Assembly: GCA_900549625.1 (NCBI GenBank)
Contig: URPE01000003.1
Location: 23,107-87,106, forward strand
Reading direction: 5' to 3'
DNA: 64,000 nt
From: an uncultured Mycoplasmatota bacterium
GTDB taxonomy: Bacteria; Bacillota_I; Bacilli_A; RF39; UBA660
The notes below the pieces were generated by a model. The model did not search any database and had not been told where the DNA came from. It was given only the letters and a program-made list of their open reading frames with translations. A program made the translations under genes and the position numbers. This document shows, in pieces, positions 2,452 through 53,322 of the stretch (positions are counted from its first letter, which is position 1; each line of letters starts with the position of its first letter).

Positions 2452-2469
2452 TGTCTACAATAGTAGACA
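2452..2469. promoter_or_regulatory. 18-bp palindrome TGTCTACAATAGTAGACA (operator or RNA hairpin), copy 1
   Basis: Perfect 7-bp arms with a 4-bp centre. On the transcribed strand it ends 4 nt before the RBS of the XRE gene. Confidence 0.6.
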
Positions 2470-2484
2470 TTTTGATTAAAAAAA

Positions 2485-2700
2485 TTATATTTCTATTTCT
2501 TCTTCTAAATTTTGTTCAACAGCATTTCTATCAAATAACCTATCTTCTAAAACATCTATATCAAAATCATATTGCATATTTGAAGTAATATATGAAATCA
2601 TCATTTCTTCCAAATCATTAGGATTTGAAATATCCATTCCTGATTCTAAAAATGTTTCCTTATTTTCCTCAAATAACTCTTTTATATACTCTTTATTCAT
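2485..2700 (-). CDS. Small acidic hypothetical protein
   Basis: 71-aa ORF with a 4-nt overlap with the upstream ORF. Confidence 0.4.
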   Translation of the reverse strand: MNKEYIKELFEENKETFLESGMDISNPNDLEEMMISYITSNMQYDFDIDVLEDRLFDRNAVEQNLEEEIEI

Positions 2701-2984
2701 TGTTCATCCTCCTTAAAAGAGCTTAAATATTTATCTTTTAATGTACCAAATATATTTATACAATTACTTCCTAATGATTGTTTATTATTATCATATTCAT
2801 TTAATAATTCTTGGCATCTCCACAACAACTTAAATTCCTCATCAGTTATTTCATAATTTCTTAAATCAACATAATTATCTGTTGGTGAATAATTATTTAA
2901 ATTATTATAAAAGTCATTTAACATTTTTTCATTTACTTTTTGAACTGCTTCTATATATTCTTTTTCTGTAAATATTTCTTTCAT
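2697..2984 (-). CDS. Hypothetical protein
   Basis: 95-aa ORF in the operon. No motif recognised. Confidence 0.4.
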   Translation of the reverse strand: MKEIFTEKEYIEAVQKVNEKMLNDFYNNLNNYSPTDNYVDLRNYEITDEEFKLLWRCQELLNEYDNNKQSLGSNCINIFGTLKDKYLSSFKEDEQ

Positions 2985-3001
2985 TAAAGCCCCTTTCTTT
3001 A

Positions 3002-3757
3002 TTAATTTGTTTCTAATTTCATTCCTAAATAGATACCATTTTCATCTTGTATTGGACTACACATTCCTGTTCTATTTATTTTTTTCAATTCTGTCGCACA
3101 CGCATCAGATACATTCAACATTGTATATCCATCTGAAAAAAGAAAATATTTTACTATTTTCTCTGAAGTATTATTATCATTTTTTGTAGTTTCCTCTTGC
3201 TTAGGAGTTTGAGAATTTTGTTCTTCTTTTTGAGATGGTTTAGATTCTGAATTTTTATTATCATAATCATTCTTAATTGAATTTGATTTATTTTCTGTTG
3301 AACCAGTTTTTGAATTATTAGTATCAACTTGTTCTTCTGTTTCCTTTATAATCACTTTCAATATAGCTTGACTTGTATTTCCAGCCTTATCACTAACGCT
3401 ATATATAATGGAATGCTCACCAACAATAGATGTATCTATCATTTCATATTGAACTTCTTCTATTAAATTCCCATCAATCTTATCTTCTACACTTTCAATA
3501 TAATCTTTGTAGTTTATATCATCCCCTTTCATTATCTCTATTTCTTTTATTTTTAATTTAATAATTGGAGCATCCTCATCTTTTATTACTACATCTTCTT
3601 TTGAATTTACCTTTGGTTCAGTAGATGAAGTATTATTAAAATGAAAATATAAAATCACACTAAAAATTAATATAAGAAGAAAAGTTATTCCACCAATTAT
3701 AATAAACCTCTTCTTTTTATATTTACGATACTTCAGTAATAATTCTTCATCACTCAT
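3002..3757 (-). CDS. Membrane-anchored protein with a bacterial Ig-like (DUF5011-type) domain
   Basis: N-terminal TM (FIIIGGITFLLILIFSVILYF). Ig-like segment APIIKL...GDDINYKDYIESVEDKIDGNL...GEHSIIYSVSDKAGN, paralogous to 3776-4198 and 49183-50208. Confidence 0.55.
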   Translation of the reverse strand: MSDEELLLKYRKYKKKRFIIIGGITFLLILIFSVILYFHFNNTSSTEPKVNSKEDVVIKDEDAPIIKLKIKEIEIMKGDDINYKDYIESVEDKIDGNLIEEVQYEMIDTSIVGEHSIIYSVSDKAGNTSQAILKVIIKETEEQVDTNNSKTGSTENKSNSIKNDYDNKNSESKPSQKEEQNSQTPKQEETTKNDNNTSEKIVKYFLFSDGYTMLNVSDACATELKKINRTGMCSPIQDENGIYLGMKLETN

Positions 3758-3775
3758 AATAATTTTCTCCCTTCG

Positions 3776-4198
3776 TTAATCTAAATATTTAAAGTTTGGT
3801 TTCTCTTTAATTATCACTTGAAGATCTATTTTTGTTGTATTTAATGCTTTATCACTAACCTCATAACTCACAACAAATTCTCCAATTTTATTTACATCTA
3901 ACTCATTATATTTTACTCTTTCTATTAAATTGCCTTCCAAATTATCTGATGCTTCTTTTATAAAAGATTTATAATTAATTGCATCTTCCTGATACATTAC
4001 CAATTTATCTTGAGTTAATATTAATATCGGAGCAACTTCATCTGATTTAAGCATTTCCTCATATTTTTCTTTTTCAAGTTCTTCTTGTTTTGCTATTTCC
4101 AATTTTCTTTGAATGACACTTTTGTTTAAAAATATTGGAATTGTAATACAAATAATAATTGTTAAAATCATTAAAAAAATCATTTTACCTTTTTTCAT
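3776..4198 (-). CDS. Membrane-anchored Ig-like (DUF5011-type) domain protein
   Basis: N-terminal TM followed by APILILTQDKL...INYKSFIKEASDNLEGNL...GEFVVSYEVSDKALN. Paralog of 3002-3757. Confidence 0.55.
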   Translation of the reverse strand: MKKGKMIFLMILTIIICITIPIFLNKSVIQRKLEIAKQEELEKEKYEEMLKSDEVAPILILTQDKLVMYQEDAINYKSFIKEASDNLEGNLIERVKYNELDVNKIGEFVVSYEVSDKALNTTKIDLQVIIKEKPNFKYLD

Positions 4199-6123: not shown

Positions 6124-6124
6124 A

Positions 6125-9113: not shown

Positions 9114-9114
9114 C

Positions 9115-9933: not shown

Positions 9934-9957
9934 TCGTATCCTCCCTTATTTTAAATC

Positions 9958-10284
9958 TTATAGACCAAATAATCCTTTTGATTGACTAATAGCTATTACC
10001 ATAAATCCTGCCATCATAGTCATTAATCCTCTGGACTTTCCTTCTGCATCATCCCTTTGCCATCCTAATGCAAACATTACTGCACCAATTAAAGCAACTA
10101 CACCACCAATTTTTAGTAACCAATCACAAACAAAACTAATAAAACCATCTATACTACTTGTGTTACTACCAGCAGCATATACACTACTGGTACTTAAGAT
10201 CAAACTACAAACTATTACATTTAAACTACTAACTGTTTTCTTTACTGCTTTTTTTACTTTTAATAAGATATTATTATTTTTCAT
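9958..10284 (-). CDS. Small two-TM secreted/membrane protein (VirB2/Maff2-like pilin candidate)
   Basis: 108 aa. Signal-like N-terminus ending in VYAAG and a C-terminal hydrophobic hairpin. First gene after the palindrome at 10307-10324. Confidence 0.45.
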   Translation of the reverse strand: MKNNNILLKVKKAVKKTVSSLNVIVCSLILSTSSVYAAGSNTSSIDGFISFVCDWLLKIGGVVALIGAVMFALGWQRDDAEGKSRGLMTMMAGFMVIAISQSKGLFGL

Positions 10285-10306
10285 TGTTTTCTCCTTTTCT
10301 TTATTA

Positions 10307-10324
10307 TGTCTACAATAGTAGACA
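10307..10324. promoter_or_regulatory. 18-bp palindrome, copy 2
   Basis: Identical sequence, between the T4CP stop (10346) and the RBS of the pilin-like gene (start 10284). Confidence 0.6.
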
Positions 10325-10345
10325 ATTAAATTAAAAAAAATAAAA

Positions 10346-12289
10346 CTACAAATTTTCTAAAAGTTCATCAGTCAGACTTTTAGTAGATAAAATCACATCC
10401 CCTGAATTAATAGTTTGTTCTTCATCTGCTGTCAATTTTCTTGCTCTAAATTCGGGTTTCACTTTTGCAAAACCTAAACCTAGTTCGTTTAGTAATTGTT
10501 GCTTCTTTCTTATTTCTTTGGTCTTCCTCCTTTCTACTTCATGCTCATATTTATTTTGAATCGTGTTCTTTTCATCCCACGCCTCAAACAATTCTGAATA
10601 TCTAGGATGTTTTGTTAAATCGAACATCTTAGAGTAAAACGGACGCAATCCAGACACTAATAAAATGCAATATCCTTTTTCCATTCTTGCTATCTCATCT
10701 ATAAAAGCTAATTCTCTCCCAACAATATCCCAATTGGTAGAAGATGAACCCTGTTTAGAATAAGTTCGTCCTGATGATTTTTTATACCAAGATTTTTTCC
10801 CTAACATAGATGACATATAATCTAAAGTTTCTTTACTTCGTGAACCCATAAATAAAATATAATCGCAACAATCCAATGCTGTTTCCCAATTGTCTTTGTA
10901 TACTTTTTTTAACTGTGATAATGATTGAAGACAAGTCGTTAAACCACAATTTAATCCACGAATATAAGCTAAATTTTCTAAATAGCGAGGAATAACACCA
11001 AGTTGACTCCACTCATCACAATATATTTGACAAGGCGAAGCAAGAGAACCATTGTTATGACTGGCATTATAATCAATAATAGAAAATATCTGAGTATACA
11101 TAATACTTGCTATAAAATTAAATGTAGAATCATTTGGACTATTAATAATAAAATAGGCAATTTTGCCTTCATCACCTTTAGCTCCTATCCTACTTAATTC
11201 CATAGTATCATTAACTGTTATTTCTTCAAGTTCTGCTATATTAAATGGAGATAACCTTGCAGATGCTGTAATGATGATTGTACTCATCATTTTAGTGGAA
11301 GAAGCTGACACTTTAAAATGTTTCCATTGCTTTATTCCAATGTTATCTGGATCTTTTGTTTCCCATACTTTAAACATATTACCTAAAGTAGAATTGCCCT
11401 CTTTATCAGGTTCTGCCAATCTAATAAGTTCTAAGACAGTTTTAAAATTTCTATCTTTTTCATCATAATTAAAAATGACATAATAAATAATTGATTGAAG
11501 GAACATTGATTCACATCTCTCCCAAAATGGATCTCCAGTATTACTCTCTATTGTTTCGGATTTAGTATTTAACATTAATGTATTAATAAGAGTCATTACA
11601 TCATCTTCTGCAATCCATTCTTCACCTTCAGAATCTTCAGAAACATGCCTGTTTATTTTCTTTATATACATTAATGGATTAAAATGATCAGACTTCCATT
11701 TTTCAACTAAATTTAAAACTTTAATATCATATCCTTTATTAATCAAAGACATTCCACAATCTCTAAGTAATTCTCCCTTTGGATCTGTAAGAATAATTGT
11801 TTCACCATTAGCATTCAAAATGTTTGGCTTAAAATAATATCTTGATTTTCCAGTACCAGGTCTTCCTAACAAAATAACATTACGATTTCGTTTAGATATT
11901 TTCATATTTTTTGAAAACATCTCTGTAGATGTAAATATTTGATTATTCACAAATTCTTTATCACGAAATTCTAAAGTATTTTTAGGTTCTTCCCACTCCG
12001 AGCTACCGTAAGTATTTTCCTGTATATTTTTTTTATTTTGAGTTAAATAAGTATAAATAACCATTGCTGTAAATAAACCTGTAAACAATGATGTTGATAA
12101 TGTTTTTGCATTCAAAACTACTGGTGTTGTTATTATATGAAGTTTATCTAAGGCTTCTGTTAAATATTCAAATTTAAAACTACCATTAATTTCTGCAAGA
12201 CTACTTACTCTAAGAGCATAATAAGAGGCAATGAAAACAACAATAAGAATAATCCATTTACTACTTTTACGAACTCTTTTAACGAGCAA
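10346..12289 (-). CDS. Type IV coupling protein (VirD4/TraG family)
   Basis: Two N-terminal TMs, Walker A (LLGRPGTGKS), Walker B-like (IYCDEWSQLG), 647 aa. Confidence 0.85.
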   Translation of the reverse strand: MLVKRVRKSSKWIILIVVFIASYYALRVSSLAEINGSFKFEYLTEALDKLHIITTPVVLNAKTLSTSLFTGLFTAMVIYTYLTQNKKNIQENTYGSSEWEEPKNTLEFRDKEFVNNQIFTSTEMFSKNMKISKRNRNVILLGRPGTGKSRYYFKPNILNANGETIILTDPKGELLRDCGMSLINKGYDIKVLNLVEKWKSDHFNPLMYIKKINRHVSEDSEGEEWIAEDDVMTLINTLMLNTKSETIESNTGDPFWERCESMFLQSIIYYVIFNYDEKDRNFKTVLELIRLAEPDKEGNSTLGNMFKVWETKDPDNIGIKQWKHFKVSASSTKMMSTIIITASARLSPFNIAELEEITVNDTMELSRIGAKGDEGKIAYFIINSPNDSTFNFIASIMYTQIFSIIDYNASHNNGSLASPCQIYCDEWSQLGVIPRYLENLAYIRGLNCGLTTCLQSLSQLKKVYKDNWETALDCCDYILFMGSRSKETLDYMSSMLGKKSWYKKSSGRTYSKQGSSSTNWDIVGRELAFIDEIARMEKGYCILLVSGLRPFYSKMFDLTKHPRYSELFEAWDEKNTIQNKYEHEVERRKTKEIRKKQQLLNELGLGFAKVKPEFRARKLTADEEQTINSGDVILSTKSLTDELLENL

Positions 12290-40054: not shown

Positions 40055-40063
40055 TCAAACTAT

Positions 40064-40753: not shown

Positions 40754-40767
40754 AGGATGGTTAATTA

Positions 40768-41341: not shown

Positions 41342-42238
41342 TTATTGTAATTCTATAATAATCTTTAATTGATTGTTATGCTTTTCTGCATAAATATTAC
41401 CATTTAATTGTTTAGTAAATTCTTTTGCTATAGCTAATCCTAGACCAGTTCCCTCTTTTGTTCTTGATATATCTACGGTATAAAACTCATCAAAAATTCT
41501 ATCAATATCAACATCATTATCTAATAATTCATTACTAAAAATTATTTTTACTTTATTTTCTATTTCTACTTTTATATTTAAATCACTATTACTATGTTTA
41601 TAAGCATTTCCTATTAAATTCTCAAAAATTCTTGTTAATAACATTTTATTGGAATTTATAATTATTTTTCTTTGGTTACAATCTAATAATATTTCCCTGT
41701 TATTCTTTTTATAATCATCATAAAAAACAATAACGCTTTCTTCTAAAACAGAAGTTAAATTAATCTTTTCTAATACTGGTTGTTTATTAGTTGATATTAT
41801 TTTTGAAAATTCAAAGAAAGAACTTATTAATTCTTCTAATCTTCTTAATCTCTTTTCAATCGTGATTAAATCCTTTTTCTTTTCTTCTTCACTCAAATCA
41901 GTTTTCAAAATAATATCAATATACCCTAATGCAGAAGTTAATGGGGTTCTAAGATCATGAGAAATATTTGTCATCATCTTCATTAATGATTTATTCTTAT
42001 TACCATAATCAATTTTTATATTTTTTGACTCTGTTAATAAATTATTTATTTTATATATAAGATTATTTATATTTTTTAAATTATACTTTGAATGAATTAG
42101 TGTATTACTATCCAAATCTTTTATATTATCAATTTCTTTCGATATATGTTTTACTTCATTATGATATAAAAAAAGATAAGTAAGCAATATGATTATAACA
42201 ATAATTAAAATAATTATAATAAATTCCATACTTATCAC
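41342..42238 (-). CDS. Sensor histidine kinase with a single N-terminal TM and no extracytoplasmic domain
   Basis: H-box (NISHDLRTPLTSALGY), N-box-like region (IGNAYKHS) and G-box (GTGLGLAIAKE). Confidence 0.8.
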   Translation of the reverse strand: MISMEFIIIILIIVIIILLTYLFLYHNEVKHISKEIDNIKDLDSNTLIHSKYNLKNINNLIYKINNLLTESKNIKIDYGNKNKSLMKMMTNISHDLRTPLTSALGYIDIILKTDLSEEEKKKDLITIEKRLRRLEELISSFFEFSKIISTNKQPVLEKINLTSVLEESVIVFYDDYKKNNREILLDCNQRKIIINSNKMLLTRIFENLIGNAYKHSNSDLNIKVEIENKVKIIFSNELLDNDVDIDRIFDEFYTVDISRTKEGTGLGLAIAKEFTKQLNGNIYAEKHNNQLKIIIELQ

Positions 42239-42245
42239 CTGTCTT

Positions 42246-43079
42246 TTATTTTATTTCAGCTTTTTTAAAAGAATAATAACCAATTATGTTAAATATAGCA
42301 CAATATGCAACACCTAATATAATACAACTAATAATATATGTATTTGTTGGACTATCAACCAATTTTATTAAAGCCGTTTGGATTTCATAATCATTAATCC
42401 AAGTAATATTTAACTTAAATAAATTAGTTACACTTATCATAATTATTTGAATTACAACAATTAATGGTATTGATATTGAATTAAATAGAGATACTTTTTT
42501 AAATACAAAAGCTAAACATACTAATAGACTAATTATACCATATAATAACGGTAATTGTATAATTGTTAATTTTGTAAATTCTAATAATGGTGTTGAAAAT
42601 GCTTTACCATTTATAATTAAATTTAAAAGATATGCACCATAATTATTAAATAAAATCAAAAATGTACTTAAACCTAATATTAGTAACAACTTAGAAAAAT
42701 AATATTCTTTTCTTGAAATTGCAGATGATATAGTATTTTTTATAGACTTAGTAGAAAAATCTGTTGCTAACACTATAACTGTTATTACTATAAAAAAATA
42801 GTATAAATTTGTATTTGTTCCTATTATTTCTTTATCTAATGCAAAAGCACCACTATTCTTTATTATTTTCCTATATTCTCCTAATGTTTTTGCATTATTT
42901 ACTTCTGTTGCCAATCCTACATCACTTGTATCTGAACCTGTGCCAAATGATAAACCTATAGTTCCAGCAGATATTCCAACTACACTTACCATTGTTAAAA
43001 TGATAATTATTGCTAAAACTATGTATATAGCTTTACCCTTTAAAATTCTATATAAATCAGATTTAATTATATTAATCAT
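42246..43079 (-). CDS. ABC-2-type transporter permease
   Basis: 277 aa with about 6 TMs, immediately downstream of the ABC ATPase. Confidence 0.65.
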   Translation of the reverse strand: MINIIKSDLYRILKGKAIYIVLAIIIILTMVSVVGISAGTIGLSFGTGSDTSDVGLATEVNNAKTLGEYRKIIKNSGAFALDKEIIGTNTNLYYFFIVITVIVLATDFSTKSIKNTISSAISRKEYYFSKLLLILGLSTFLILFNNYGAYLLNLIINGKAFSTPLLEFTKLTIIQLPLLYGIISLLVCLAFVFKKVSLFNSISIPLIVVIQIIMISVTNLFKLNITWINDYEIQTALIKLVDSPTNTYIISCIILGVAYCAIFNIIGYYSFKKAEIK

Positions 43080-43080
43080 A

Positions 43081-43995
43081 TTATTTTGCCTCCTTTATCA
43101 ATGACTTAAAGTAATCTTCTAGTGATATACCAGTTTCCTTAATTTGCTTAACATTTATATCATTTTTTACAAGAGTTCTATTAACCGTTTCAACATTTTT
43201 CAAATAATCATAAAGTCTTATTTCTTCTTTATCTACAACCTTATAATTAGTTGTTTTTAAATCTTTTTCCAAAGCAATAGATGCTTTTTCTACATCATCA
43301 GTATTAATTACAATACATTTTGAACACTCAATATCTAATTCTTCTTTAGTTAGTTCTTTAACAACTTTACCTTTTTCTATTATACAAAAACGAGTTGCTA
43401 ATAAGTATAATTCAGATAATATATGACTAGATATTAAAATAGTAATATTTCTTTCCTTATTTAATTTTTTGAATGTATCTCTTAAATCACTAATACCAAT
43501 TGGATCAAGTCCATTAATTGGTTCATCTAATATTATAAAATCTGGATTATCTAATATTGCAAATGCAATTCCTAATCTTTGTTTCATTCCAAGAGAAAAA
43601 TTTTTAAATTTTTTCTTCTTTGCATCTTCTAAGCCTACTAGTTTTAAAGATTCATTAATTTGCTCATAATTAGTAATACCTTTTTGAATTGCATAATATT
43701 TCAAATTATCATACGCACTTAAATTAGGAAAAAATGCAGGATTTTCAATTAATGATCCTATTCTTTTTTTGGTTTCAGTTAGATCATTATCATTATGATT
43801 AAACAATGTAAATCCACCACTTGTTTTATTTGATAATGTTGTAATTATTTTCATCAAAGTTGTTTTCCCTGCACCATTTCTACCAATCAAACCATATATA
43901 TCTCCTCTGTCAATTTCAATATTGATTTTATCAAGAGCAACAAAATCTTTATATTTTTTAGTTAAATTGTTAGTTTTTAAAATTATTTCTTTCAT
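43081..43995 (-). CDS. ABC transporter ATP-binding protein
   Basis: Walker A (GRNGAGKTT), signature (LSLGMKQRLG) and Walker B (IILDEP). The ATG at 43995 has a GGAGGAA RBS. Confidence 0.85.
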   Translation of the reverse strand: MKEIILKTNNLTKKYKDFVALDKINIEIDRGDIYGLIGRNGAGKTTLMKIITTLSNKTSGGFTLFNHNDNDLTETKKRIGSLIENPAFFPNLSAYDNLKYYAIQKGITNYEQINESLKLVGLEDAKKKKFKNFSLGMKQRLGIAFAILDNPDFIILDEPINGLDPIGISDLRDTFKKLNKERNITILISSHILSELYLLATRFCIIEKGKVVKELTKEELDIECSKCIVINTDDVEKASIALEKDLKTTNYKVVDKEEIRLYDYLKNVETVNRTLVKNDINVKQIKETGISLEDYFKSLIKEAK

Positions 43996-44067
43996 TTTTA
44001 TTCCTCCATCAATTAAATTATACAAAAAAAGAGTTAAATAACTCTTAACACAATTCTTAAAAAAGTC

Positions 44068-44736
44068 TTAATTTTTTAATCTGTATCCAATACTCCAAAC
44101 ATTTTCTATGTATTCTTCATTTGGATTGCATTCTTTTAACTTATTTTTTATTTTACTAATATGCACATTTAAAGTATTATCATCAGCTGAATTTTCATCA
44201 TTCCAAATAGCATCAAAAATAGCACTTTTAGTTAGAGTCTGATTTTTATTTTCAATTATTAACTTTAGTAATTCGAATTCTTTTTTAGTAAATGATACAT
44301 TTTTACCATTGCACTTTACTGAAAAATTATTTTTATCTAATTCTATATCCTTAAATTTCAATATATTAGAAAAAGTATTATTATCTCTTAATTGAACTTT
44401 GATTCTAGCAATTAATTCATCATTATTAAAAGGCTTTGTTACATAATCGTTTGCACCCAATGAAAATAAATCTATTTTTTTATTAACATCTTCAATAGCA
44501 CTCATAACAATTACAGGAACATTATTTTTTTCTTTTAATTCTTTAATAATTTCTTCACCATTTTTGCCAGGTAACATTAAATCTAATAATATTAAATCAA
44601 CATTATCACTATGAACCAATAGTCCTTCTGTTCCAGAATACGCATTCTCTACATTAAAACCATTATTAGTTAACAATGCAGTAAGCATTTCATTTATATC
44701 TTTATCATCTTCTATTATTAATATTGTACTTTTCAT
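44068..44736 (-). CDS. OmpR-family response regulator
   Basis: Receiver domain (ILIIEDD...LILLDLMLPG...K) and a winged-helix C-terminus (FTKKEFELLKLI...GYRL). Confidence 0.85.
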   Translation of the reverse strand: MKSTILIIEDDKDINEMLTALLTNNGFNVENAYSGTEGLLVHSDNVDLILLDLMLPGKNGEEIIKELKEKNNVPVIVMSAIEDVNKKIDLFSLGANDYVTKPFNNDELIARIKVQLRDNNTFSNILKFKDIELDKNNFSVKCNGKNVSFTKKEFELLKLIIENKNQTLTKSAIFDAIWNDENSADDNTLNVHISKIKNKLKECNPNEEYIENVWSIGYRLKN

Positions 44737-45437: not shown

Positions 45438-45450
45438 TTCTCCTCCTATA

Positions 45451-46335: not shown

Positions 46336-46374
46336 AATCTCTCCAATTTATTACTATAAATTCATCATTTACAA

Positions 46375-46728: not shown

Positions 46729-46752
46729 AATTTAATACTCCTTTACAAATTA

Positions 46753-47214: not shown

Positions 47215-47235
47215 ATTTTGATGCTCCTTTACAAA

Positions 47236-47277
47236 TTACTATTTATCTGTTTATATTATAACATTTATTTTTTTATT
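47236..47277 (-). promoter_or_regulatory. Conserved promoter/leader block, copy 1
   Basis: Minus strand contains TGTTATAAT (extended -10). About 42 nt are nearly identical to 49110-49153. Confidence 0.45.
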
Positions 47278-47422
47278 AATCATCAGATTCATTAAAACTA
47301 ATAAAAAAGAAGAAATTATTAATAAATCCTTCTAAACAATATTATTGCATATACATTGATTATTAATTTTTTCAACATTTAATAACTAAAAAAATTAATA
47401 AGTTTAGGAGGCAATGCTTTTA

Positions 47423-47929
47423 CTACTCATTTTTATCTTCTTCTAAACCATCATGATATTTAATACAGTAATTAATTGCTACTAGTCTTAAAGCAATCCA
47501 AACTAAAGAATCATATAATTGATTATCACTAATATTTGAAGATAAACAATAATTTTTTATATAAGAAATATTTATTGGAATTTCTAATTTTCTTCCATTT
47601 CTTCTTAGTGCCTTGAACAATAAATCATTTGCAATATCATCAGATTCATTAATAATATCAGTATCATCATGTACTTTAATAAAATAATCTGTAATGTCAT
47701 CAACTTGATTAAAGACATTTCTAACTTTTTCCTCAGATTTTTCTTTTAACTCTATTAGTTGATTGTTTATTATTTCCTCAATTATTTTTTCTTTTTCACT
47801 TTCTTTTAAATCTCTAACTAATATAGTTAAATCATCTAAATTATATTCTTGTATTTCTATAATTTGGCTTAAACTCGATACCATTTTTCTTGTAATTCTA
47901 TTTACATAATCATTGTTTTCGTTTTTCAT
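47423..47929 (-). CDS. Hypothetical protein
   Basis: 168-aa ORF. No motif recognised. Confidence 0.45.
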   Translation of the reverse strand: MKNENNDYVNRITRKMVSSLSQIIEIQEYNLDDLTILVRDLKESEKEKIIEEIINNQLIELKEKSEEKVRNVFNQVDDITDYFIKVHDDTDIINESDDIANDLLFKALRRNGRKLEIPINISYIKNYCLSSNISDNQLYDSLVWIALRLVAINYCIKYHDGLEEDKNE

Positions 47930-48054
47930 ATACTATAACTCCCTTTCAATAACCCCTAAACTTATCATAATTAATTATACCATAAATTATTCATAGTGTC
48001 GTACTTTCGTGAATATTTGCCCATTCAATGGGAAAATTATTATAGGTGATATGT

Positions 48055-48507
48055 ATGATAGATAATAATTTAAAATGGTGTCGTGAGGAATTAGAAATGA
48101 CACAAGAAGAATTAGGTATAATATTAGGTGCTAGTAAACAAACCATTTCAAATTGGGAAACAGGTTATACACCAATTCCATTAAATAAATTAGTGAGATT
48201 TGTTAATTTATATGACTACTCATTGGATTTTTTAGTTGGTTTTACTAGAAATAATACTAAATATAATAAATTGATTAAATTAGATAAAAAATTAATAGGC
48301 AAAAATCTAAAGTTATTAAGAGAAAAATTAAATCTAACTCAACAAGAATTATCAGACAGATGTAATTTATATCAATCAACATATAATCATTATGAAAATG
48401 GTTACAGTTTAATAAAAATAATGCCTGCCTATTCGATATGTAAAACATACAATGTTTCTATGGACTGGTTAGTTGGTAGAACTATTAACAAAAATATTGA
48501 AAAATAA
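48055..48507 (+). CDS. XRE-family regulator with two tandem HTH domains
   Basis: Two HTH_3-like units (QEELGIILGASKQTISNWETG and QQELSDRCNLYQSTYNHYENG). The ATG at 48055 follows an AGGTG RBS. Confidence 0.7.
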   Translation: MIDNNLKWCREELEMTQEELGIILGASKQTISNWETGYTPIPLNKLVRFVNLYDYSLDFLVGFTRNNTKYNKLIKLDKKLIGKNLKLLREKLNLTQQELSDRCNLYQSTYNHYENGYSLIKIMPAYSICKTYNVSMDWLVGRTINKNIEK

Positions 48508-48595
48508 AAAAGCGAGAGTATATTAATATAACATATTCTCGCTTTTATAATTATTTAACAAACAACATAATGATATACATTTAAATTATGACTAA

Positions 48596-49090
48596 TTAAG
48601 ATATTGGCTTATTCATTAAATTAACACATTTTCCCTGAATATCATCAATCATAAAAACAATATTAATAAGTTTTCTAATATCTTGGTTGAAAATTTCTAA
48701 ATTAATACTCTTATTAGAAATATCTTCTAAAAATTTTTGATAAACTTCATCCTCATCATATTTAATTGAATTATTTTCATAATGTTTTTTTAGTTCGTCA
48801 TAAATAATCTCAAGGTAAGCATCAGAATAAATATCAAATGAATATAAATAGGATTTTATTTTAGATTTATCAGTCAAAATATTATTTTTTATTTCATCAA
48901 CTTCGTTGCCTTTTGTTAAATCATCAATCCATGGACTAACTTCCTTATCCATAAAATCACAAAATGCTTTCATAAATTCTGGATCAATTTTATTTTCATT
49001 TTTTAAATATTCATTGGCAGCATTTTTTGAAGATACACTTTCTATTTTATTTATTAAGCAAAACATTTCATCAGCTAAATTTTTGTTCAT
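48596..49090 (-). CDS. Hypothetical protein
   Basis: 164-aa ORF downstream of the conserved promoter block at 49110-49153. Confidence 0.45.
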   Translation of the reverse strand: MNKNLADEMFCLINKIESVSSKNAANEYLKNENKIDPEFMKAFCDFMDKEVSPWIDDLTKGNEVDEIKNNILTDKSKIKSYLYSFDIYSDAYLEIIYDELKKHYENNSIKYDEDEVYQKFLEDISNKSINLEIFNQDIRKLINIVFMIDDIQGKCVNLMNKPIS

Positions 49091-49109
49091 AATTTCATCT
49101 CACTTTCAT

Positions 49110-49153
49110 ATTACTATTTATCTATTTAATATTATAACATTTATTCTTTTATT
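49110..49153 (-). promoter_or_regulatory. Conserved promoter/leader block, copy 2
   Basis: Minus strand contains TGTTATAAT. Near-identical to 47236-47277. Confidence 0.45.
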
Positions 49154-49182
49154 CATTAAGCCTAGGAAAAAAGAATGAATTA

Positions 49183-50208
49183 TTAGTAATCCATCCTAAA
49201 TGACACAACTGCATACCATTGACCATTTATTTCATAGACACTTGCTGCAATTGCCGTGTTTTGCTCTCTTAGCATTGTAGCATTATGTGATGGACTATTT
49301 TTCCAAGCCATAATAAAATCTCCACCAGCATCACCATGTCCAATTATTTCACCAAAACCATAACCAGCTCCATCATGAGAATAATAGTTAACTAACTCCT
49401 TTGATCTTCTATCTGCCTCTGCTTGTGCTTCTGTTGTTACTGGTAATTCAGAAAGTCCATTTGCTCTTCTATAAGCATTTATCTGACTTACATAAGTATT
49501 TGAAATATCCTTTCTATACCCAATTGAAGGAGAACTTTGCTGAGTTGAATTTGATTGGAATGATTTATTATAACTATTATTTGAACTATTATTATTACTA
49601 TTATTTTTGGTCGCTACAGTTTTTTCTTCTTCTTTTTCTTTCACTTTTAAAGTAAACTCTTTTGACGAAATATTATTACTTTCATCTTTAGCGACAATTT
49701 TTAATTTATATTCACCTACTTTTGATAAATCATATTCTCCATCTACTAGTAATGAAACATTTGATAGATCTTTTGCTTCAAAATAATCGGATAAATTTAA
49801 GCTCTCTGTATTTTTTTCTAATTCAATAACTTCTTTTGAGGAAATAAATTCAGGTGCTATAGTATCAACTACCTCAATAACAAATTTTTTCTCATCTATT
49901 TTATTCTTAATAGTAAGATTATATTTGCCTAATGGTACAATATTATCTTTTTCTTTAATAAATTTTCCATTTTCAATTTTTAATTTATCAGAAGTTATTT
50001 TATAATCTTTTATATTACTAATAGAATCGGTATTTTTCAAATAATAAGAAACATCCGAAGTTATATCATCACCCAATTCATATACAAATTTTTCTTGATT
50101 TAATTCAATTTTATTTTTTTCTTTTGTAATGATTACCAATACAAATACAAATATAACTATAATTATTACTATCAAAATTGGTATAAATATTTTTAATTTT
50201 TTCTTCAT
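49183..50208 (-). CDS. Membrane-anchored CAP/SCP (YkwD-like) domain protein with Ig-like (DUF5011-type) domains
   Basis: N-terminal TM. C-terminus has INAYRRANGLSEL...HDGAGYGFGEIIGHG...WKNSPSHNATML. The ATG at 50208 follows a GGAGGAG RBS. Confidence 0.7.
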   Translation of the reverse strand: MKKKLKIFIPILIVIIIVIFVFVLVIITKEKNKIELNQEKFVYELGDDITSDVSYYLKNTDSISNIKDYKITSDKLKIENGKFIKEKDNIVPLGKYNLTIKNKIDEKKFVIEVVDTIAPEFISSKEVIELEKNTESLNLSDYFEAKDLSNVSLLVDGEYDLSKVGEYKLKIVAKDESNNISSKEFTLKVKEKEEEKTVATKNNSNNNSSNNSYNKSFQSNSTQQSSPSIGYRKDISNTYVSQINAYRRANGLSELPVTTEAQAEADRRSKELVNYYSHDGAGYGFGEIIGHGDAGGDFIMAWKNSPSHNATMLREQNTAIAASVYEINGQWYAVVSFRMDY

Positions 50209-50266
50209 AAACTCCTCCAACTGCTATGTTATTAATGTGGTTGTATAACCACATTATAATATATTT

Positions 50267-50728
50267 TTAATCTAAGTAGAAATAATAAGTTTTATCATAA
50301 ATAAATTCCACTTGATTCGAATAAACAGCTAAATAGAAATATGCTCTATTTTTTTGTCTTCTAATTTGTCTTTCACTTATATTTATTTTTTTTGCTATTT
50401 CCTTGTCAGTGTATCCATAAAAACATTTTAATCTTAAAAACTCTGCGATTGTTTTGTCTATTTTTTGAATTTTCAAAACACTTTTTATATAATTAGCAAT
50501 TTGATCATCATGCCATGATAATACTTTTAATAATTTATCAGAAGCAGATGAACCAGTTGTTCCACTTGAGAATAACAAAATACTTGCCGAATTAAATGAA
50601 CTTGTATTTAATTGCCTTAATCTTTTTTCAACAAGTGGTTGATATAATTCACATACTTCTCTACCATTCATAGCTGTTTTTTCTATATCTATTTTTGATA
50701 TTATTTTACTATCAAAAATATCAAGCAT
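50267..50728 (-). CDS. Sigma-70 region-4-like HTH protein (small sigma/regulator of a mobile element)
   Basis: C-terminal segment YGYTDKEIAKKINISERQIRRQKNRAYFYL. Confidence 0.5.
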   Translation of the reverse strand: MLDIFDSKIISKIDIEKTAMNGREVCELYQPLVEKRLRQLNTSSFNSASILLFSSGTTGSSASDKLLKVLSWHDDQIANYIKSVLKIQKIDKTIAEFLRLKCFYGYTDKEIAKKINISERQIRRQKNRAYFYLAVYSNQVEFIYDKTYYFYLD

Positions 50729-50982
50729 TATTCAGATTCCACAGTATCTTCTACATTAGATTCTTTTTCAGTTATTTTGCGAACATTAACAGCTTTTTCA
50801 AGCTCTTCATCATAATCAAAAATAACTGCTTCATTTTCTTCTAAAGTTTTATATCCTTTCATTTGAATATCTGAAAAATGAACATACACATCATTTTTAA
50901 TTTCATCACATTGAATGAAACCATATCCCTTCTCGTTACTAAACCACTTAACATTTCCTCTCATATTTACTTTTTCTTGCAT
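50728..50982 (-). CDS. Cold-shock domain protein
   Basis: RNP1 (KGYGFI) and RNP2 (VYVHF) motifs, with an acidic C-terminal tail. Confidence 0.85.
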
Positions 50983-51611
50983 TTTCTATTATCTCCTTTT
51001 CCATTCTTATTTACTACTATATTTACTGCTGTTTCATTTACTGCTAAATCATATAGTCTATTAATCCTTTTTAATATATAATCAATAGATAATATTATTA
51101 CTGCAACTACTACCACTAAATAAAAACTTCTCATTAAACTACCAAGAATCATAAAATTATAATTCAATAAAGCACTACATGGTAAAAATAATATTGATTT
51201 AATTAAAGTATTTATTATATTTTTACAATTCAAATTATTTTTTTTACCATAATATACAACTAAAAACATCATAATAACAAAAGTAATTATATAAGTATTT
51301 AATACAAATTTTCTTAAATCAATTAATTTTATCAAATTTGTATTATTGTTCAAACAATTAAAATTATCAAATATTGAAAATATAGTGTTAGTTGATAAAT
51401 ATAAACAATATATAATTATTAAAAATATTAATACAACTTTTAAATATTTCATTATAATTGATAACTTATGGTAAAATTGCATTCTTTTGTTATTTCCTTC
51501 ATCTTTCCAATACTCTTCTGCACTACTATTAAATAAATCCTTATAAAACTGCTTTATCTTTTTAATTGTTTTTCCTCCTTCTAAATCCCATTGATATTGA
51601 TAAAGCATCAT
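50967..51611 (-). CDS. Polytopic membrane protein
   Basis: Four hydrophobic segments. The true start is probably internal (MQFYHK...), because the 5' end overlaps the toxin gene. Confidence 0.4.
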
Positions 51612-51903
51612 CTATTTTCCTCATAGTTTTATCATCAAATGATTTTACATAGTGTATTACTTGATCTTTTGAAATAGTTAAAATACATTCACACAAAGCC
51701 ATTGTTTCACATCCTAATATAACATGAACTGGTAAGTAAGTTTTTTTTATTTTTGATGTAAGGGGGATAACTATTAAAGTCGGAGAGAATTTATTACCAT
51801 CATCATTTTGAACAACTACGCAAGGTCTTTTTCCAGATTGAACATGTTTAGATTTATTATACAATTGAACAAAATAGACATCTCCTCTTTTGATTTTTTT
51901 CAT
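51562..51903 (-). CDS. MazF/PemK-family type II toxin (endoribonuclease)
   Basis: KRGDVYFVQL...GKRPCVVVQND...TLIVIPLTSK pattern, 113 aa. Confidence 0.75.
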   Translation of the reverse strand: MKKIKRGDVYFVQLYNKSKHVQSGKRPCVVVQNDDGNKFSPTLIVIPLTSKIKKTYLPVHVILGCETMALCECILTISKDQVIHYVKSFDDKTMRKIDDALSISMGFRRRKNN

Positions 51904-52166
51904 ATAAAATAACTTTTAACCACACATTCTATTTCCAAAATATAATAAGCATCTAATGGATATTTAACCTTTCTTCTCCTCTTTAAATATTTATTTTCGT
52001 AAACAATCTTTAAAACACATGGATAACCTTGCCTTTTTAAAATTTCAATAATTTTTTCCTTTCCAATCTTTTTTACTATCTCTCTTCCACAACAACAATT
52101 ACCAAATTTTCTTAGATGACGCAAAATCCAATCAGGGATTTCTGTATTTTCCTCTTGAAAATCCAT
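51900..52166 (-). CDS. Hypothetical protein, candidate cognate antitoxin by position
   Basis: 88-aa ORF with a 4-nt overlap with the toxin start. No MazE/AbrB or RHH motif recognised. Confidence 0.35.
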   Translation of the reverse strand: MDFQEENTEIPDWILRHLRKFGNCCCGREIVKKIGKEKIIEILKRQGYPCVLKIVYENKYLKRRRKVKYPLDAYYILEIECVVKSYFI

Positions 52167-52187
52167 GATAGTTCCCCTCTCAAATTT

Positions 52188-52379
52188 TTAGAATAATTTG
52201 ATTAAATCAAAATCAAATTCACTTCCTACTTCAAAAAATTTTACTTCATCATCTCCATCAAACAAATAATAAATAATATTATCAATTACTTTAATGATTG
52301 TGAGAAAATATCCGTGATTATCTGATAAGGTATTAAAAACTTTGTACCTATCTTTTTCCTTATATTCTAAATGAATCAT
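52188..52379 (-). CDS. Small hypothetical protein
   Basis: 63-aa ORF. RBS AAAGGG directly downstream of the palindrome at 52394-52411. Confidence 0.4.
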   Translation of the reverse strand: MIHLEYKEKDRYKVFNTLSDNHGYFLTIIKVIDNIIYYLFDGDDEVKFFEVGSEFDFDLIKLF

Positions 52380-52393
52380 CCCTTTCTTTCATC

Positions 52394-52411
52394 TGTCTAC
52401 AATAGTAGACA
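52394..52411. promoter_or_regulatory. 18-bp palindrome, copy 3
   Basis: Identical sequence, just upstream of the RBS of 52188-52379. Confidence 0.6.
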
Positions 52412-52502
52412 ATTAGGGTAAAAAAATAATTTCTTACTCCTATTTTAACAACTATTATTTACTATTTTATTAACAATCACCTCCAAACGAACTTCCAGAG
52501 GT

Positions 52503-52520
52503 TGTCTACTATTGTAGACA
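52503..52520. promoter_or_regulatory. 18-bp palindrome, copy 4 (centre TATT on the plus strand)
   Basis: TGTCTACTATTGTAGACA, located 91 nt from copy 3. Confidence 0.6.
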
Positions 52521-52587
52521 CCTTATGTTAAAATAATAACCTTTTATTTAAAAAAAGTCAAGACCTATAATAAATAATATTTGTTTC

Positions 52588-52618
52588 AAAGAAAACTGTA
52601 TAGAAACAATCTATACAG
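52588..52618 (-). terminator. Rho-independent terminator after 52631-52939
   Basis: Minus strand: CTGTATAG-ATTGTTT-CTATACAG followed by TTTTCTTT. Confidence 0.6.
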
Positions 52619-52630
52619 CCGATACCTTTT

Positions 52631-52939
52631 TCAGTTTTTTATTGTTGTTACACAATCACTTAGCGTTGTAATTGTTTTGTCCAATTTTGCCTCGTCTTCA
52701 ACTGAAATGATACCGAGAGTACCAATTAATTCTATTAATTGTTCATACTTTACTGCCAAAGAATTACATAATAGAAGTTCATTTATAGTTTTATTATAAT
52801 CTTCTTCTACTTTGCTTAATTTTTTTATAACATCTTTCAATACTTCTTTTGATATATTTTCTTCCTCATTAATACATCTATTTAATACTTCCAAAACTAC
52901 TTTTACTTCATTTACTGCTAATCTTTCTTCTTTAGTCAT
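52631..52939 (-). CDS. Hypothetical coiled-coil protein
   Basis: 102-aa ORF. No motif recognised. Confidence 0.45.
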   Translation of the reverse strand: MTKEERLAVNEVKVVLEVLNRCINEEENISKEVLKDVIKKLSKVEEDYNKTINELLLCNSLAVKYEQLIELIGTLGIISVEDEAKLDKTITTLSDCVTTIKN

Positions 52940-52942
52940 TTT

Positions 52943-53203
52943 CTAACTTTCCTTTCCAATTGGTACTTCTTCTTTTCGTGATGTTTTATCCTTCAAACTA
53001 TCTAAGCATTTTTCTAACACACGAATTGTAGATTCTTCGTCCAACTGAGTCGTTAATGCAATATCATTATTTTTAATAATAATTTTTATGCACCTAGTTT
53101 GACTTGAAGACTGCATTTTATACAAAATTTCACCTGCCTTTCTAATAGTCAGGATGAAAACATCACCCTTAGTCCTATTGCCATAAATACTCCTCCACTT
53201 CAT
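52943..53203 (-). CDS. Small hypothetical protein transcribed divergently from the XRE gene
   Basis: 86-aa ORF. No clear RBS at the first ATG, so the start is uncertain. Confidence 0.35.
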   Translation of the reverse strand: MKWRSIYGNRTKGDVFILTIRKAGEILYKMQSSSQTRCIKIIIKNNDIALTTQLDEESTIRVLEKCLDSLKDKTSRKEEVPIGKES

Positions 53204-53261
53204 TTACTGCAAATATAGCTTTCTGCTATACATAAGATATATTATCAAAAAAAATTCCACT

Positions 53262-53279
53262 TGTCTACTATTGTAGTCT
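53262..53279. promoter_or_regulatory. 18-bp palindrome, copy 5 (two mismatches in the right arm)
   Basis: TGTCTACTATTGTAGTCT, in the divergent intergenic region 53204-53375. Confidence 0.5.
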
Positions 53280-53304
53280 ATTTAAAATTTTGTCGTTTAA
53301 TTTT

Positions 53305-53322
53305 AGTACACAATAGTAGACA
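53305..53322. promoter_or_regulatory. Half-conserved palindrome, copy 6, overlapping the -35 of the XRE gene promoter
   Basis: AGTACACAATAGTAGACA. The right arm TAGACA (53317-22), a 17-nt spacer and TAAAAT (53340-45) form a plus-strand promoter for 53376-53774. Confidence 0.5.

What the first reader, a model, noticed from the sequence alone, without database searches (positions are those of the whole stretch)
2452..53322. The 18-bp palindrome TGTCTACAATAGTAGACA recurs six times and ties the conjugation genes to a distant regulatory hub
Four copies are perfect: 2452, 10307, 52394 and 52503. Two are degenerate: 53262 and 53305. An exact 18-mer recurring by chance is negligible.

Copies 1-3 sit a few to about 12 nt upstream of the RBS of minus-strand genes: the XRE regulator, the first T4SS structural gene and a small ORF. 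Copies 5-6 lie in the divergent promoter region of the XRE gene at 53376. There the half-site TAGACA doubles as the -35 element (17-nt spacer to TAAAAT).

Inference: this is the operator of an element-encoded repressor controlling conjugation, immunity-repressor style. Because copies 1-3 are transcribed and lie just 5' of ribosome-binding sites, with no obvious promoter between 10346 and 10307, an RNA-level role is an alternative. That role would be a 7-bp stem with a 4-nt loop acting as a processing, stability or protein-binding hairpin.
Basis: partly seen in the sequence, partly recalled or inferred. Interest (0 to 1): 0.6.

Follow-up and report, generated by a model that had tools for sequence, protein, structure and literature searches.

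The report
Repressor operator scattered through a conjugative element
An 18-bp palindrome found only inside a ~67-kb conjugative element of an uncultured gut bacterium is most likely the DNA site of the element's own repressor, placed at its promoters and in front of four gene blocks, an ordinary kind of control with one unusual feature.

Summary
All six copies are where stated, and a seventh lies 1 kb left of the window. In the 1.26-Mb genome the motif occurs only inside one integrated conjugative element.

Related elements in other gut MAGs keep the copies at the same positions while the flanks diverge. Four lineages carry four different palindromes. In each lineage every copy has switched together, including those 36-54 kb from the hub.

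The recognition helix of the hub XRE (53376-53774) differs in every class. The helix of the second XRE (2054-2431) is the same in two classes with different palindromes. The hub XRE is therefore the likely binder.

Two hub copies supply the -35 hexamer TAGACA of two divergent promoters. A third copy sits 12 nt after the -10 of a strong promoter. RNA-specific signatures are absent.

The unexplained part is the in-operon copies. Each sits in a conserved cassette: stop codon, T7-10, eight variable nt, palindrome, RBS. This cassette may be a repressor-dependent roadblock terminator or a gated internal promoter.

Verdict: a new variant of a known kind, of moderate interest, with no experimental proof.

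The parts
53305..53322 (+). Operator copy c6 (AGTACACAATAGTAGACA). Its right half TAGACA is the -35 of the XRE-1 promoter.
   Evidence: The same design is seen in classes A', B, E and G.
53262..53279 (-). Operator copy c5 (AGACTACAATAGTAGACA on the minus strand). Its TAGACA is the -35 of the leftward promoter P_L.
   Evidence: The c5-c6 spacing is 43-44 bp in most elements and 54 bp in one.
53317..53345 (+). P_R: TAGACA-17-TAAAAT, the promoter of XRE-1.
   Evidence: 10 of 12 matches. It is conserved in relatives.
53239..53267 (-). P_L: TAGACA-17-TAATAT with an upstream TG. It is the promoter of ORFs 52943-53203 and 52631-52939.
   Evidence: It is conserved in classes A' and B.
53376..53774 (+). 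XRE-1, a 132-aa HTH repressor candidate and the likely binder of the palindrome.
   Evidence: Pfam HTH_3. The AF2 model has pLDDT 84, with the recognition helix at residues 33-40. Foldseek finds the HTH of C.Esp1396I, C.BclI and SinR, and a whole-length match to SaPI Stl. The helix differs in each palindrome class.
52533..52561 (-). P_main: TTGACT-17-TATTAT, a strong promoter after the terminator-like hairpin at 52594-52620.
   Evidence: It is conserved in all classes.
52503..52520 (-). Operator copy c4, 12 nt downstream of the P_main -10 (about +6 to +23).
   Evidence: The geometry is 11-12 nt in all classes.
52394..52426 (-). Cassette c3: T7 (52420-52426), N8 (52412-52419) and palindrome (52394-52411), 14 nt before the ATG of ORF 52188-52379.
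10307..10340 (-). Cassette c2: T8, N8 and palindrome, between the coupling-protein gene (10346-12289) and the VirB2-like gene (9958-10284).
2452..2484 (-). Cassette c1: T7, N8 and palindrome, directly after the stop codon of ORF 2485-2700 and 20 nt before XRE-2.
2054..2431 (-). XRE-2, a 125-aa HTH_3 protein with an acidic Cys-rich tail. It is controlled by c1 and is probably not the binder of the palindrome.
   Evidence: Pfam. The helix ISDTE(I/L/V)SRIEHGER is the same in classes A and E although their palindromes differ.
50267..52379 (-). First genes after c3: ORF63, ORF88, a MazF/PemK-like toxin, ORF214, a cold-shock-domain protein and a sigma-70 region-4-like protein.
   Evidence: Pfam. The cold-shock gene is conserved at this place in classes A', B, E and G.

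Best explanation
The window lies in an integrated conjugative element of about 67 kb. The element runs from a serine recombinase at the left end to the HTH_36 gene at the right end. The 18-bp palindrome is the DNA operator of the element's master repressor, most likely a dimer of the XRE protein at 53376-53774.

Shown by sequence and comparison:
1. In the hub, copies c5 and c6 each donate their promoter-proximal half (TAGACA) as the -35 hexamer of two back-to-back promoters. One is the repressor's own promoter and the other drives two small ORFs. Occupancy would shut both promoters.
2. Copy c4 lies 12 nt after the -10 of the strong promoter that heads the long minus-strand gene array.
3. Four further copies (c3, c2, c1 and c0) each lie in a cassette: stop codon, T7-10, eight variable nt, palindrome, RBS. 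These cassettes precede the early regulatory genes, the type IV secretion genes, a second XRE gene and the SSB/ArdC/relaxase block.

Inferred:
- With repressor present, the cassettes block transcription that arrives from upstream.
- I favour a roadblock in which RNA polymerase is halted inside the T-run.
- A weak internal promoter (TAWTTT, then 12-15 nt, then operator) gated in the same way is about equally possible.
- When the repressor is lost, or in a new host without it, all blocks open together.
For: - **Restriction to the element.** The motif is found only inside the element and is far above chance.
- **Purifying selection.** In elements 83-88% identical, the 18-mer is unchanged at homologous sites, while the 8-nt gap beside it differs at 2-5 positions.
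- **A single trans-acting specificity factor.** There are four classes:
  - A: TGTCTAC-TATT-GTAGACA
  - B: TGTTTAC-TAGT-GTAAACA
  - E: AGTTTAC-TATC-GTGAACT
  - G: AGTTTAC-TAGT-GTAAACT

  Each class has its own palindrome at all positions. This includes copies 36-54 kb from the hub whose neighbouring genes stay about 90% identical to class A.
- **The factor acts on DNA.**
  - The hub copies lie upstream of the predicted start sites.
  - They keep TAGACA as the -35 in every class, even where the class half-site is TAAACA or TGAACT. Their distal halves are class-specific.
  - Class specificity sits in stem positions 1/18 and 4/15.
  - The site can be flipped within its cassette (class G c2).
  - Half-sites vary independently: T-T, A-A and A-G at pair 3-16.
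- **The binder.**
  - The XRE-1 helix is SRAYINRI in A, NKATLSKL in B, SKAYMSKI in E and SKSSISKI in G.
  - XRE-1 is the most diverged hub protein between A and B: 38% against 51-72% for the others.
  - The XRE-2 helix is the same in A and E.
  - The predicted fold matches dimeric operator-binding HTH proteins and the SaPI repressor Stl.
- **The cassette.**
  - T>=7 runs occur 40 times in 67.3 kb of sense strand.
  - Yet one ends exactly 8 nt before each of c0-c3 and before nearly all homologues in four classes.
  - More distant relatives have intrinsic terminators at the same place, between the coupling-protein and VirB2-like genes.
Against: - No binding or expression data exist.
- Covariation of XRE-1 with the palindrome rests on four classes. 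XRE-1 is physically linked to four of the seven sites.
- The central 4 bp are unusually conserved for a spacer not contacted by an HTH dimer.
- Three or four of the degenerate copies carry the same A-to-G change on the mRNA strand. An RNA hairpin would also tolerate this change.
- The roadblock step is inferred from geometry alone.
  - A polymerase stalled 13-15 bp before the site would have only the first few U of the run in its hybrid.
  - No upstream hairpin is conserved.
- The c3-c4 spacing (109-125 bp) is not phased. Looping between them is therefore unsupported.
Confidence: 0.66

Rival explanations
1. The in-operon copies (c0-c3, perhaps c4) act as RNA. A 7-bp hairpin just 5' of each RBS, with the U-run upstream, would control processing, stability or translation. 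One version has the U-run pairing with the purine-rich Shine-Dalgarno, with the hairpin as a clamp. The clamp could be opened by the element's cold-shock-domain protein or cut by its MazF-like nuclease. The hub copies would still be DNA operators.
For: - All four copies are transcribed in one orientation and lie 14-22 nt before start codons.
- The minimum-energy folds of c0-c2 pair the U-run with the Shine-Dalgarno around the hairpin.
- Compensatory changes keep the pairing across classes: pair 4-15 goes from C-G to T-A, and pair 1-18 from T-A to A-T.
- Several degenerate copies are G-U on the sense strand.
- A cold-shock-domain gene and a MazF-like gene are conserved in the first operon.
- The 7-10 nt U-run matches the size of a cold-shock-domain footprint (from established knowledge of CspB; not tested here).
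Against: - Compensatory change is equally expected for a symmetric DNA site.
- Over 17 distinct cassette hairpins, the non-Watson-Crick cells are 9 G-U, 6 C-A and 3 other, so there is no strand bias.
- Pair 3-16 is broken without compensation in c3 and c0 of one lineage.
- The loop is flipped in class G c2.
- The identical sequence at promoter -35 sites cannot act as RNA.
- Concerted class switching needs a sequence-specific reader of stem positions, which is unusual for A-form RNA.
- No Rfam family matches.
Confidence: 0.17
2. The palindrome is a DNA operator, but its binder is not XRE-1. The binder would be XRE-2 (2054-2431), one of the small P_L-encoded proteins (52943-53203, 52631-52939), ORF88, or the sigma-like protein.
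For: - XRE-2 is a canonical HTH_3 protein, lies directly behind copy c1, and differs between classes A and B.
- The small hub ORFs have no assigned function.
- XRE-1 covariation could reflect linkage to the hub.
Against: - The XRE-2 recognition helix is unchanged between classes A and E, whose palindromes differ at four positions.
- The other hub proteins are 51-72% identical between A and B, and none shows an HTH.
- XRE-1 has the classic position of an autoregulated repressor, with operators over its own -35.
Confidence: 0.1
3. The cassettes are nut-like loading sites for a processive antiterminator, with a linear U-rich box, an 8-nt spacer and a class-specific hairpin. Alternatively they are parts of a leader attenuator of the pLS20 'zipper' type, formed by pairing of c4 with c3.
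For: - The layout resembles lambda boxA-spacer-boxB (from established knowledge).
- c4 and c3 are perfectly complementary in the window, and RNAfold pairs them.
- Long Gram-positive conjugation operons use antitermination and leader attenuators (PMC8191782, PMC13401043).
Against: - The c4-c3 complementarity is lost in the loops of classes A', B, E and G. Otherwise it is automatic for two copies of any palindrome.
- c3 is not followed by a U-tract, so it is not an intrinsic terminator.
- Loop identity, which is essential for boxB-type recognition, is flipped in one cassette.
- No arginine-rich small protein was identified.
Confidence: 0.04

Closest known systems
Rco repressor and the divergent Pc/Pr promoters of Bacillus subtilis plasmid pLS20 (PMC7641744, PMC8014075)
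   Same: Both have an XRE-type repressor transcribed divergently from a very long Gram-positive conjugation operon. In both, operators overlap both promoters, and further devices inside the operon limit spurious transcription.
   Different: - pLS20 uses two operator clusters near the promoters with DNA looping, a Rap/Phr anti-repressor, intrinsic terminators with the conAn antiterminator, and a leader attenuator.
- Here the same operator recurs 0.1-54 kb downstream inside T-run cassettes.
- The c3-c4 spacing is not phased.
- No conAn or Rap homologue was looked for or found.
ImmR of ICEBs1, Stl of SaPIs, and phage CI/Cro immunity regions
   Same: All are master repressors of a mobile element that are autoregulated from a divergent promoter region. 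Immunity classes arise where repressor helix and operator change together. The XRE-1 model resembles Stl over its whole length.
   Different: Those repressors act only at the switch region. Here four more copies lie deep in the element. No ImmA-like protease or other inducer was identified.
KorA/KorB regulon of IncP plasmids and the repressor network of IncW R388 (from established knowledge)
   Same: One palindromic operator is scattered over a conjugative element, so that replication, establishment and transfer blocks answer to one repressor. A burst of expression is expected on entry into a naive host.
   Different: These are Gram-negative plasmids with unrelated proteins (KorB is a ParB homologue). 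Their operators are at or near recognisable promoters, or act at a distance. No T-run cassette is present.
RNA polymerase I terminators: Reb1/Nsi1/TTF-I roadblock plus upstream T-rich element (PMC12366685)
   Same: Both have a T-rich stretch on the non-template strand a fixed short distance upstream of a protein-binding site. Pol I stalls 15 bp before the site, within the T-rich element. Here the T-run spans -9 to -16/-18.
   Different: - The Pol I system is eukaryotic.
- It needs an upstream RNA hairpin for release.
- It is constitutive rather than gated by a repressor.
- Bacterial roadblocks described so far (CcpA, CodY, PurR, GalR; PMC10310618) are not reported with a T-tract partner.

Membership tests
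XRE / Cro-C1 helix-turn-helix repressors (Pfam HTH_3 clan) | HTH_3-type domain detectable by profile | tested here: met
   XRE-1 scores HTH_3 at E 3.1e-5, 24.4 bits (cut-off 23). XRE-2 scores E 3.9e-9.
XRE / Cro-C1 helix-turn-helix repressors (Pfam HTH_3 clan) | Five-helix fold with the recognition helix as helix 3 | tested here: met
   The AF2 model has pLDDT 84, with helices at 3-17, 22-29, 33-40, 51-60 and 65-77. Foldseek matches C.Esp1396I, C.BclI, SinR and ClgR at TM about 0.7-0.8 over the target, although E is only 4e-3 to 4e-2.
XRE / Cro-C1 helix-turn-helix repressors (Pfam HTH_3 clan) | Binds a two-fold symmetric operator as a dimer | not testable with these tools
   The half-site centres are 11 bp apart, which fits. 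Binding itself was not measured.
Mobile-element master repressor with a divergent switch region | Repressor gene transcribed divergently from the element's lytic or transfer genes, with operators overlapping both promoters | tested here: met
   P_R and P_L both use an operator half as their -35. This is conserved in five lineages.
Mobile-element master repressor with a divergent switch region | Operator and recognition helix change together between immunity types | tested here: met
   There are four palindrome classes and four XRE-1 helices. This is correlative, with n = 4.
Mobile-element master repressor with a divergent switch region | A known induction route (protease, anti-repressor, quorum signal) | not tested
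   No ImmA-like or Rap-like gene was noticed in the Pfam scans. No dedicated search was made.
Cis-acting RNA hairpin (5'-UTR or intercistronic stabiliser or translational operator) | Pairing kept by compensatory and wobble changes specific to the transcribed strand | tested here: not met
   The count is 101 Watson-Crick, 9 G-U, 6 C-A and 3 other cells. The compensatory changes are equally explained by DNA symmetry.
Cis-acting RNA hairpin (5'-UTR or intercistronic stabiliser or translational operator) | All functional copies lie within transcripts in one orientation | tested here: not met
   c5 and c6 lie at -35 positions. c4 is flipped in the window lineage and c2 is flipped in class G.
Intrinsic (Rho-independent) terminator | G+C-rich hairpin followed directly by a U-tract | tested here: not met
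   The T-run precedes the hairpin by 8 nt, and an RBS follows the hairpin. True terminator-like hairpins occupy this position in more distant relatives.
Protein-roadblock terminator (Pol I Reb1/TTF-I type) | T-rich non-template stretch at a fixed short distance upstream of the protein site | tested here: met
   T7-10 ends 8 nt before the palindrome in c0-c3 and in nearly all homologues of four classes. The background is 40 such runs in 67.3 kb.
Protein-roadblock terminator (Pol I Reb1/TTF-I type) | Protein-dependent 3' ends and transcript release at the T-rich element | not testable with these tools
   This needs 3'-end mapping with and without the repressor.

The most novel reading that the evidence does not exclude
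The cassette 'T7-10, eight nt, operator' may be a bacterial repressor-gated roadblock terminator. Bound XRE-1 would halt RNA polymerase inside the oligo-T stretch, and the transcript would be released.

One repressor would then close the promoter and four internal checkpoints of a 55-kb conjugation operon, and open them all at once. This would do the job that intrinsic terminators plus a processive antiterminator do in pLS20-type elements. It would also mirror the eukaryotic Pol I terminator design.
Probability: 0.25. Interest if true: 0.75.

Novelty: new variant of a known kind. Interest (0 to 1): 0.5.

Why it matters
- **An uncharacterised element family.** The repressor alone was seen on hundreds of contigs. 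The family comes from gut Bacilli with reduced genomes, where nothing is known about control of conjugation.
- **Ready-made specificity pairs.** The four classes pair a palindrome with a recognition helix. They could be used to study how immunity or incompatibility groups of conjugative elements diverge.
- **A possible new terminator type.** If the T-run cassette proves to be a repressor-dependent terminator, it would be a simple way, not yet described in bacteria, to keep a very long operon silent.
- **If not.** Otherwise the finding is an ordinary multi-operator regulon.

Tried and rejected
- **18-nt RNA duplex between 52503 and 52394.** It is predicted by folding. I rejected it because the loop complementarity is absent in the roe-deer element and in classes B, E and G.
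- **Antisense promoters using TAGACA as -35 at c0-c3.** c1 scores 10 of 12. I rejected this because the -10 after the A-run is not conserved in relatives or in class B.
- **A -10 hexamer inside the loop (TAKTGT).** I rejected this because the loop is flipped in class G c2.
- **DNA looping between c3 and c4.** The spacing is 109, 110, 119, 122 and 125 bp, which is not phased.
- **XRE-2 as the binder.** Rejected.
- **Searches with no useful result.**
  - The plasmid database gave no match.
  - Scans of viral contigs gave only single, probably chance hits.
  - Rfam gave nothing.
  - Metagenome records could not be extended.
- **Left aside.** Classes C, D and F (AAGGAAC-N3-GTTCCTT, TTGGCAA-WW-TTGCCAA, TTAGGAAATAATTTCCTAA) in elements with about 50-65% VirB4 identity show the same habit of a recurrent palindrome. 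Their binders were not sought.
Full report
**1. Observation**

The 18-mer occurs exactly as reported. It is perfect on the + strand at 2452, 10307 and 52394, and perfect on the - strand at 52503. The copy at 53262 (-) has two mismatches and the copy at 53305 (+) has three. Shuffles give 0.10 hits against the 10 strand-hits seen.

The window is C3:23107-87106 of a 1.26-Mb, 28% G+C, 45-contig genome. In the whole genome the motif is confined to C3:22075-76437. A seventh copy, c0 (CGTCCACAATAGTAGACA), lies 1031 bp left of the window. All seven copies share ACAATAGTAGACA, and only the other arm degenerates.

**2. Context**

Pfam scans show a Gram-positive-type integrated conjugative element.
- **Left of the window:** a large serine recombinase, a MobA/VirD2 relaxase, a NikA-like protein, ArdC and SSB.
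- **In the window:**
  - a coupling protein (10346-12289);
  - a VirB2-like protein (9958-10284);
  - PrgI;
  - a VirB4-like ATPase;
  - a CHAP hydrolase;
  - a DnaG-type primase;
  - adhesins and cargo genes.
- **Regulatory hub:** at 52.2-53.8 kb.

The 98%-identical hub in another MAG diverges from the window beyond 54648, which marks the right end. Nearly all genes are on the minus strand.

**3. Anatomy**

The promoter scan ranks three sites highest in the hub.
- P_main: TTGACT-17-TATTAT (52561-52533, minus).
- P_R: TAGACA-17-TAAAAT (53317-53345, plus). It drives the XRE gene 53376-53774.
- P_L: TAGACA-17-TAATAT with a TG (53267-53239, minus).

The two TAGACA hexamers are the promoter-proximal halves of c6 and c5. 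Copy c4 starts 12 nt after the P_main -10.

The other four copies share a longer module. In order it contains:
- the stop codon of the upstream gene (absent at c3);
- T7-8;
- exactly eight variable nt;
- the palindrome;
- 1-9 nt;
- a Shine-Dalgarno sequence.

T-runs of 7 or more occur 40 times in the 67.3-kb sense strand. Their placement before all four copies is therefore not chance.

The genes behind the cassettes are as follows.
- c3: ORF63, ORF88, a MazF-like toxin, ORF214, a cold-shock-domain protein and a sigma region-4-like protein.
- c2: the secretion apparatus.
- c1: a second XRE.
- c0: ORF138, SSB, a resolvase-like protein, ArdC and the relaxase block.

**4. Relatives**

An exact-motif scan of species genomes and searches in those genomes found the same element in uncultured 'Bacilli' and 'Mollicutes' gut MAGs from humans and a roe deer. 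At 83-88% nucleotide identity the 18-mer is unchanged at c1 and c2, while the adjacent 8-nt gap differs at 2-5 positions.

The roe-deer hub keeps all four hub sites and all three promoters, with three differences.
- c4 has the centre in the other orientation.
- c3, c4, c5 and c0 carry GTAGTCA or GTAGGCA halves that break pair 3-16 without compensation.
- c5-c6 are 54 rather than 43 bp apart, a difference of 11 bp.

**5. Specificity classes**

I used three searches: a VirB4-anchored scan of metagenome contigs (80 loci, 46-100% identity), pattern searches in family genomes, and an XRE-1 profile search. Together they show that sister elements carry other palindromes in the same architecture.

| Class | Palindrome | XRE-1 recognition helix |
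|---|---|---|
| A | TGTCTAC-TATT-GTAGACA | SRAYINRI |
| B | TGTTTAC-TAGT-GTAAACA | NKATLSKL |
| E | AGTTTAC-TATC-GTGAACT | SKAYMSKI |
| G | AGTTTAC-TAGT-GTAAACT | SKSSISKI |

In every class the following hold.
- P_main is followed after 11-12 nt by the class operator.
- c3 follows 109-125 bp later in a T-run cassette.
- c2 and c1 are class-type cassettes.
- The hub sites are hybrids. The promoter-proximal half stays GTAGACA (GTAGACT in G) as the -35, and the distal half is class-specific.

The class E copies c1 and c2 lie next to genes about 90% identical to class A. The distant sites therefore follow the hub class, not their neighbourhood. This calls for one trans-acting reader of the sequence.

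More distant elements (about 50-65% VirB4 identity) have yet other recurrent palindromes. Several of them have intrinsic terminators at the position between the coupling-protein and VirB2-like genes.

**6. Which protein**

- The XRE-1 helix 3 (residues 33-40 in the AF2 model) differs in each class, as tabulated above.
- XRE-1 is the most diverged hub protein between A and B, at 38% against 51-72% for the others.
- XRE-2 keeps ISDTE(I/L/V)SRIEHGER in both A and E, so it is unlikely to read the palindrome.
- The XRE-1 model (pLDDT 84) matches the HTH of C.Esp1396I, C.BclI, SinR and ClgR. Over its whole length it matches the SaPI repressor Stl. The Foldseek E-values are only 4e-3 to 4e-2, and the sequence search of solved structures is weak.

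**7. DNA or RNA**

Across 17 distinct cassette 18-mers, the 119 pair cells are 101 Watson-Crick, 9 G-U, 6 C-A and 3 other. An RNA hairpin on the sense strand should show an excess of G-U over C-A, and it does not.

Further points against an RNA-only reading:
- the class G c2 cassette has the centre flipped;
- the long-range c4/c3 duplex predicted in the window is not conserved;
- Rfam finds nothing.

Compensatory changes at pairs 1-18 and 4-15 fit DNA symmetry as well as RNA pairing. An added RNA effect cannot be excluded. The conserved cold-shock-domain and MazF-like genes of the first operon keep that idea alive.

**8. The cassette**

I see two DNA-level readings.
- **(a) Roadblock.** Polymerase coming from upstream meets bound XRE-1 and stalls 13-15 bp before it, inside the T-run. 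That distance is 15 bp for Pol I at Reb1 (PMC12366685) and about 14 bp for E. coli polymerase at EcoRI-Q111 (from memory of Pavco and Steege 1990, listed in PMC10310618). The T-run spans -9 to -16/-18 relative to the palindrome.
  - The review of bacterial roadblocks (PMC10310618) lists CcpA, CodY, PurR and GalR, but no T-tract partner.
  - The fixed 3' edge of the T-run and its variable 5' edge favour this reading. So does the presence of a cassette 110-125 bp downstream of P_main.
- **(b) Internal promoter.** A weak internal promoter TAWTTT lies 12-15 nt before the operator, the same geometry as P_main. This would allow quick expression of SSB and ArdC in a new host. However, the 'TA' comes largely from stop codons and is missing in two class B cassettes.

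**9. Comparison with known systems**

The logic is that of pLS20 Rco, ICEBs1 ImmR, SaPI Stl and phage immunity regions. The scattering of one operator over the element recalls the IncP KorA/KorB regulon.

What differs is threefold: the host group, the set of four helix-operator classes, and the T-run cassettes inside the operon.

**10. Verdict**

The operator reading is supported, with confidence of about two thirds and no experiment. XRE-1 rather than XRE-2 is the likely binder. The RNA reading is not supported but not excluded. The cassette mechanism remains open.

Noticed in passing
G000:C3 about 10540-77750 (window 1-54650 plus 12.5 kb to the left); L044:5559-8987: The element is about 67 kb. 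A large serine recombinase (L044:7344-8987) sits at the left end, directly beside a 550-aa ORF that matches only the C-terminal two thirds of a valyl-tRNA synthetase. The element may have inserted into or beside valS. The right end abuts a complete LeuRS-like gene (54689-57112).
   Followed up: partly
window 50728-50982, 51562-51903, 50267-50728: The first operon after the hub encodes a cold-shock-domain protein, a MazF/PemK-like endoribonuclease and a small sigma-70 region-4-like protein. The cold-shock gene is kept at this place in all four operator classes, beside a separate chromosomal csp.
   Followed up: partly
window 52412-52502: The leader between c4 and c3 holds a conserved strong Shine-Dalgarno-like GGAGGTG. 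In the window it forms the 3' arm of a 9-bp hairpin. It is followed in relatives by mini-ORFs of 2-11 codons of unrelated sequence, which may be a leader peptide or a pause site.
   Followed up: no
window 27570-28721: A 383-aa protein has a C-terminal Tad4 (type I Thoeris inhibitor) domain at E 6e-20, which is an anti-defence cargo gene. An ArdC-like anti-restriction protein lies left of the window (L044:15234-16181).
   Followed up: no
window 41342-44736: A cargo block contains an OmpR-type response regulator, a histidine kinase, an ABC ATPase and an ABC-2 permease. This layout is typical of peptide-antibiotic sensing and export modules.
   Followed up: no
L073 (2260, 5913, 7682, 14244, 15344); L062 (772-12404); L078 (about 7600): More distant sister elements (VirB4 46-55% identical) carry other recurrent palindromes: TTGGCAA-WW-TTGCCAA, AAGGAAC-N3-GTTCCTT and TTAGGAAATAATTTCCTAA. 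In L073, three copies lie about 15 nt upstream of a conserved TGGTACAAAATA...TATAAT promoter-like block, next to ParA/ParB-like genes. The other two copies lie just before an RBS.
   Followed up: partly
G445:C29:2936-2953 (L137, = L017): An exact class A 18-mer stands alone on a small contig of a genome whose own element is class E. It has no T-run cassette. It may be chance or a remnant of a second element.
   Followed up: no
window 48046-48507 (+): This plus-strand ORF is a third XRE-family protein with two HTH_3 domains (153 aa). It sits at the left edge of the hub module, which is shared at 98% identity with another MAG (window 48506-54648). No palindrome copy lies next to it.
   Followed up: no
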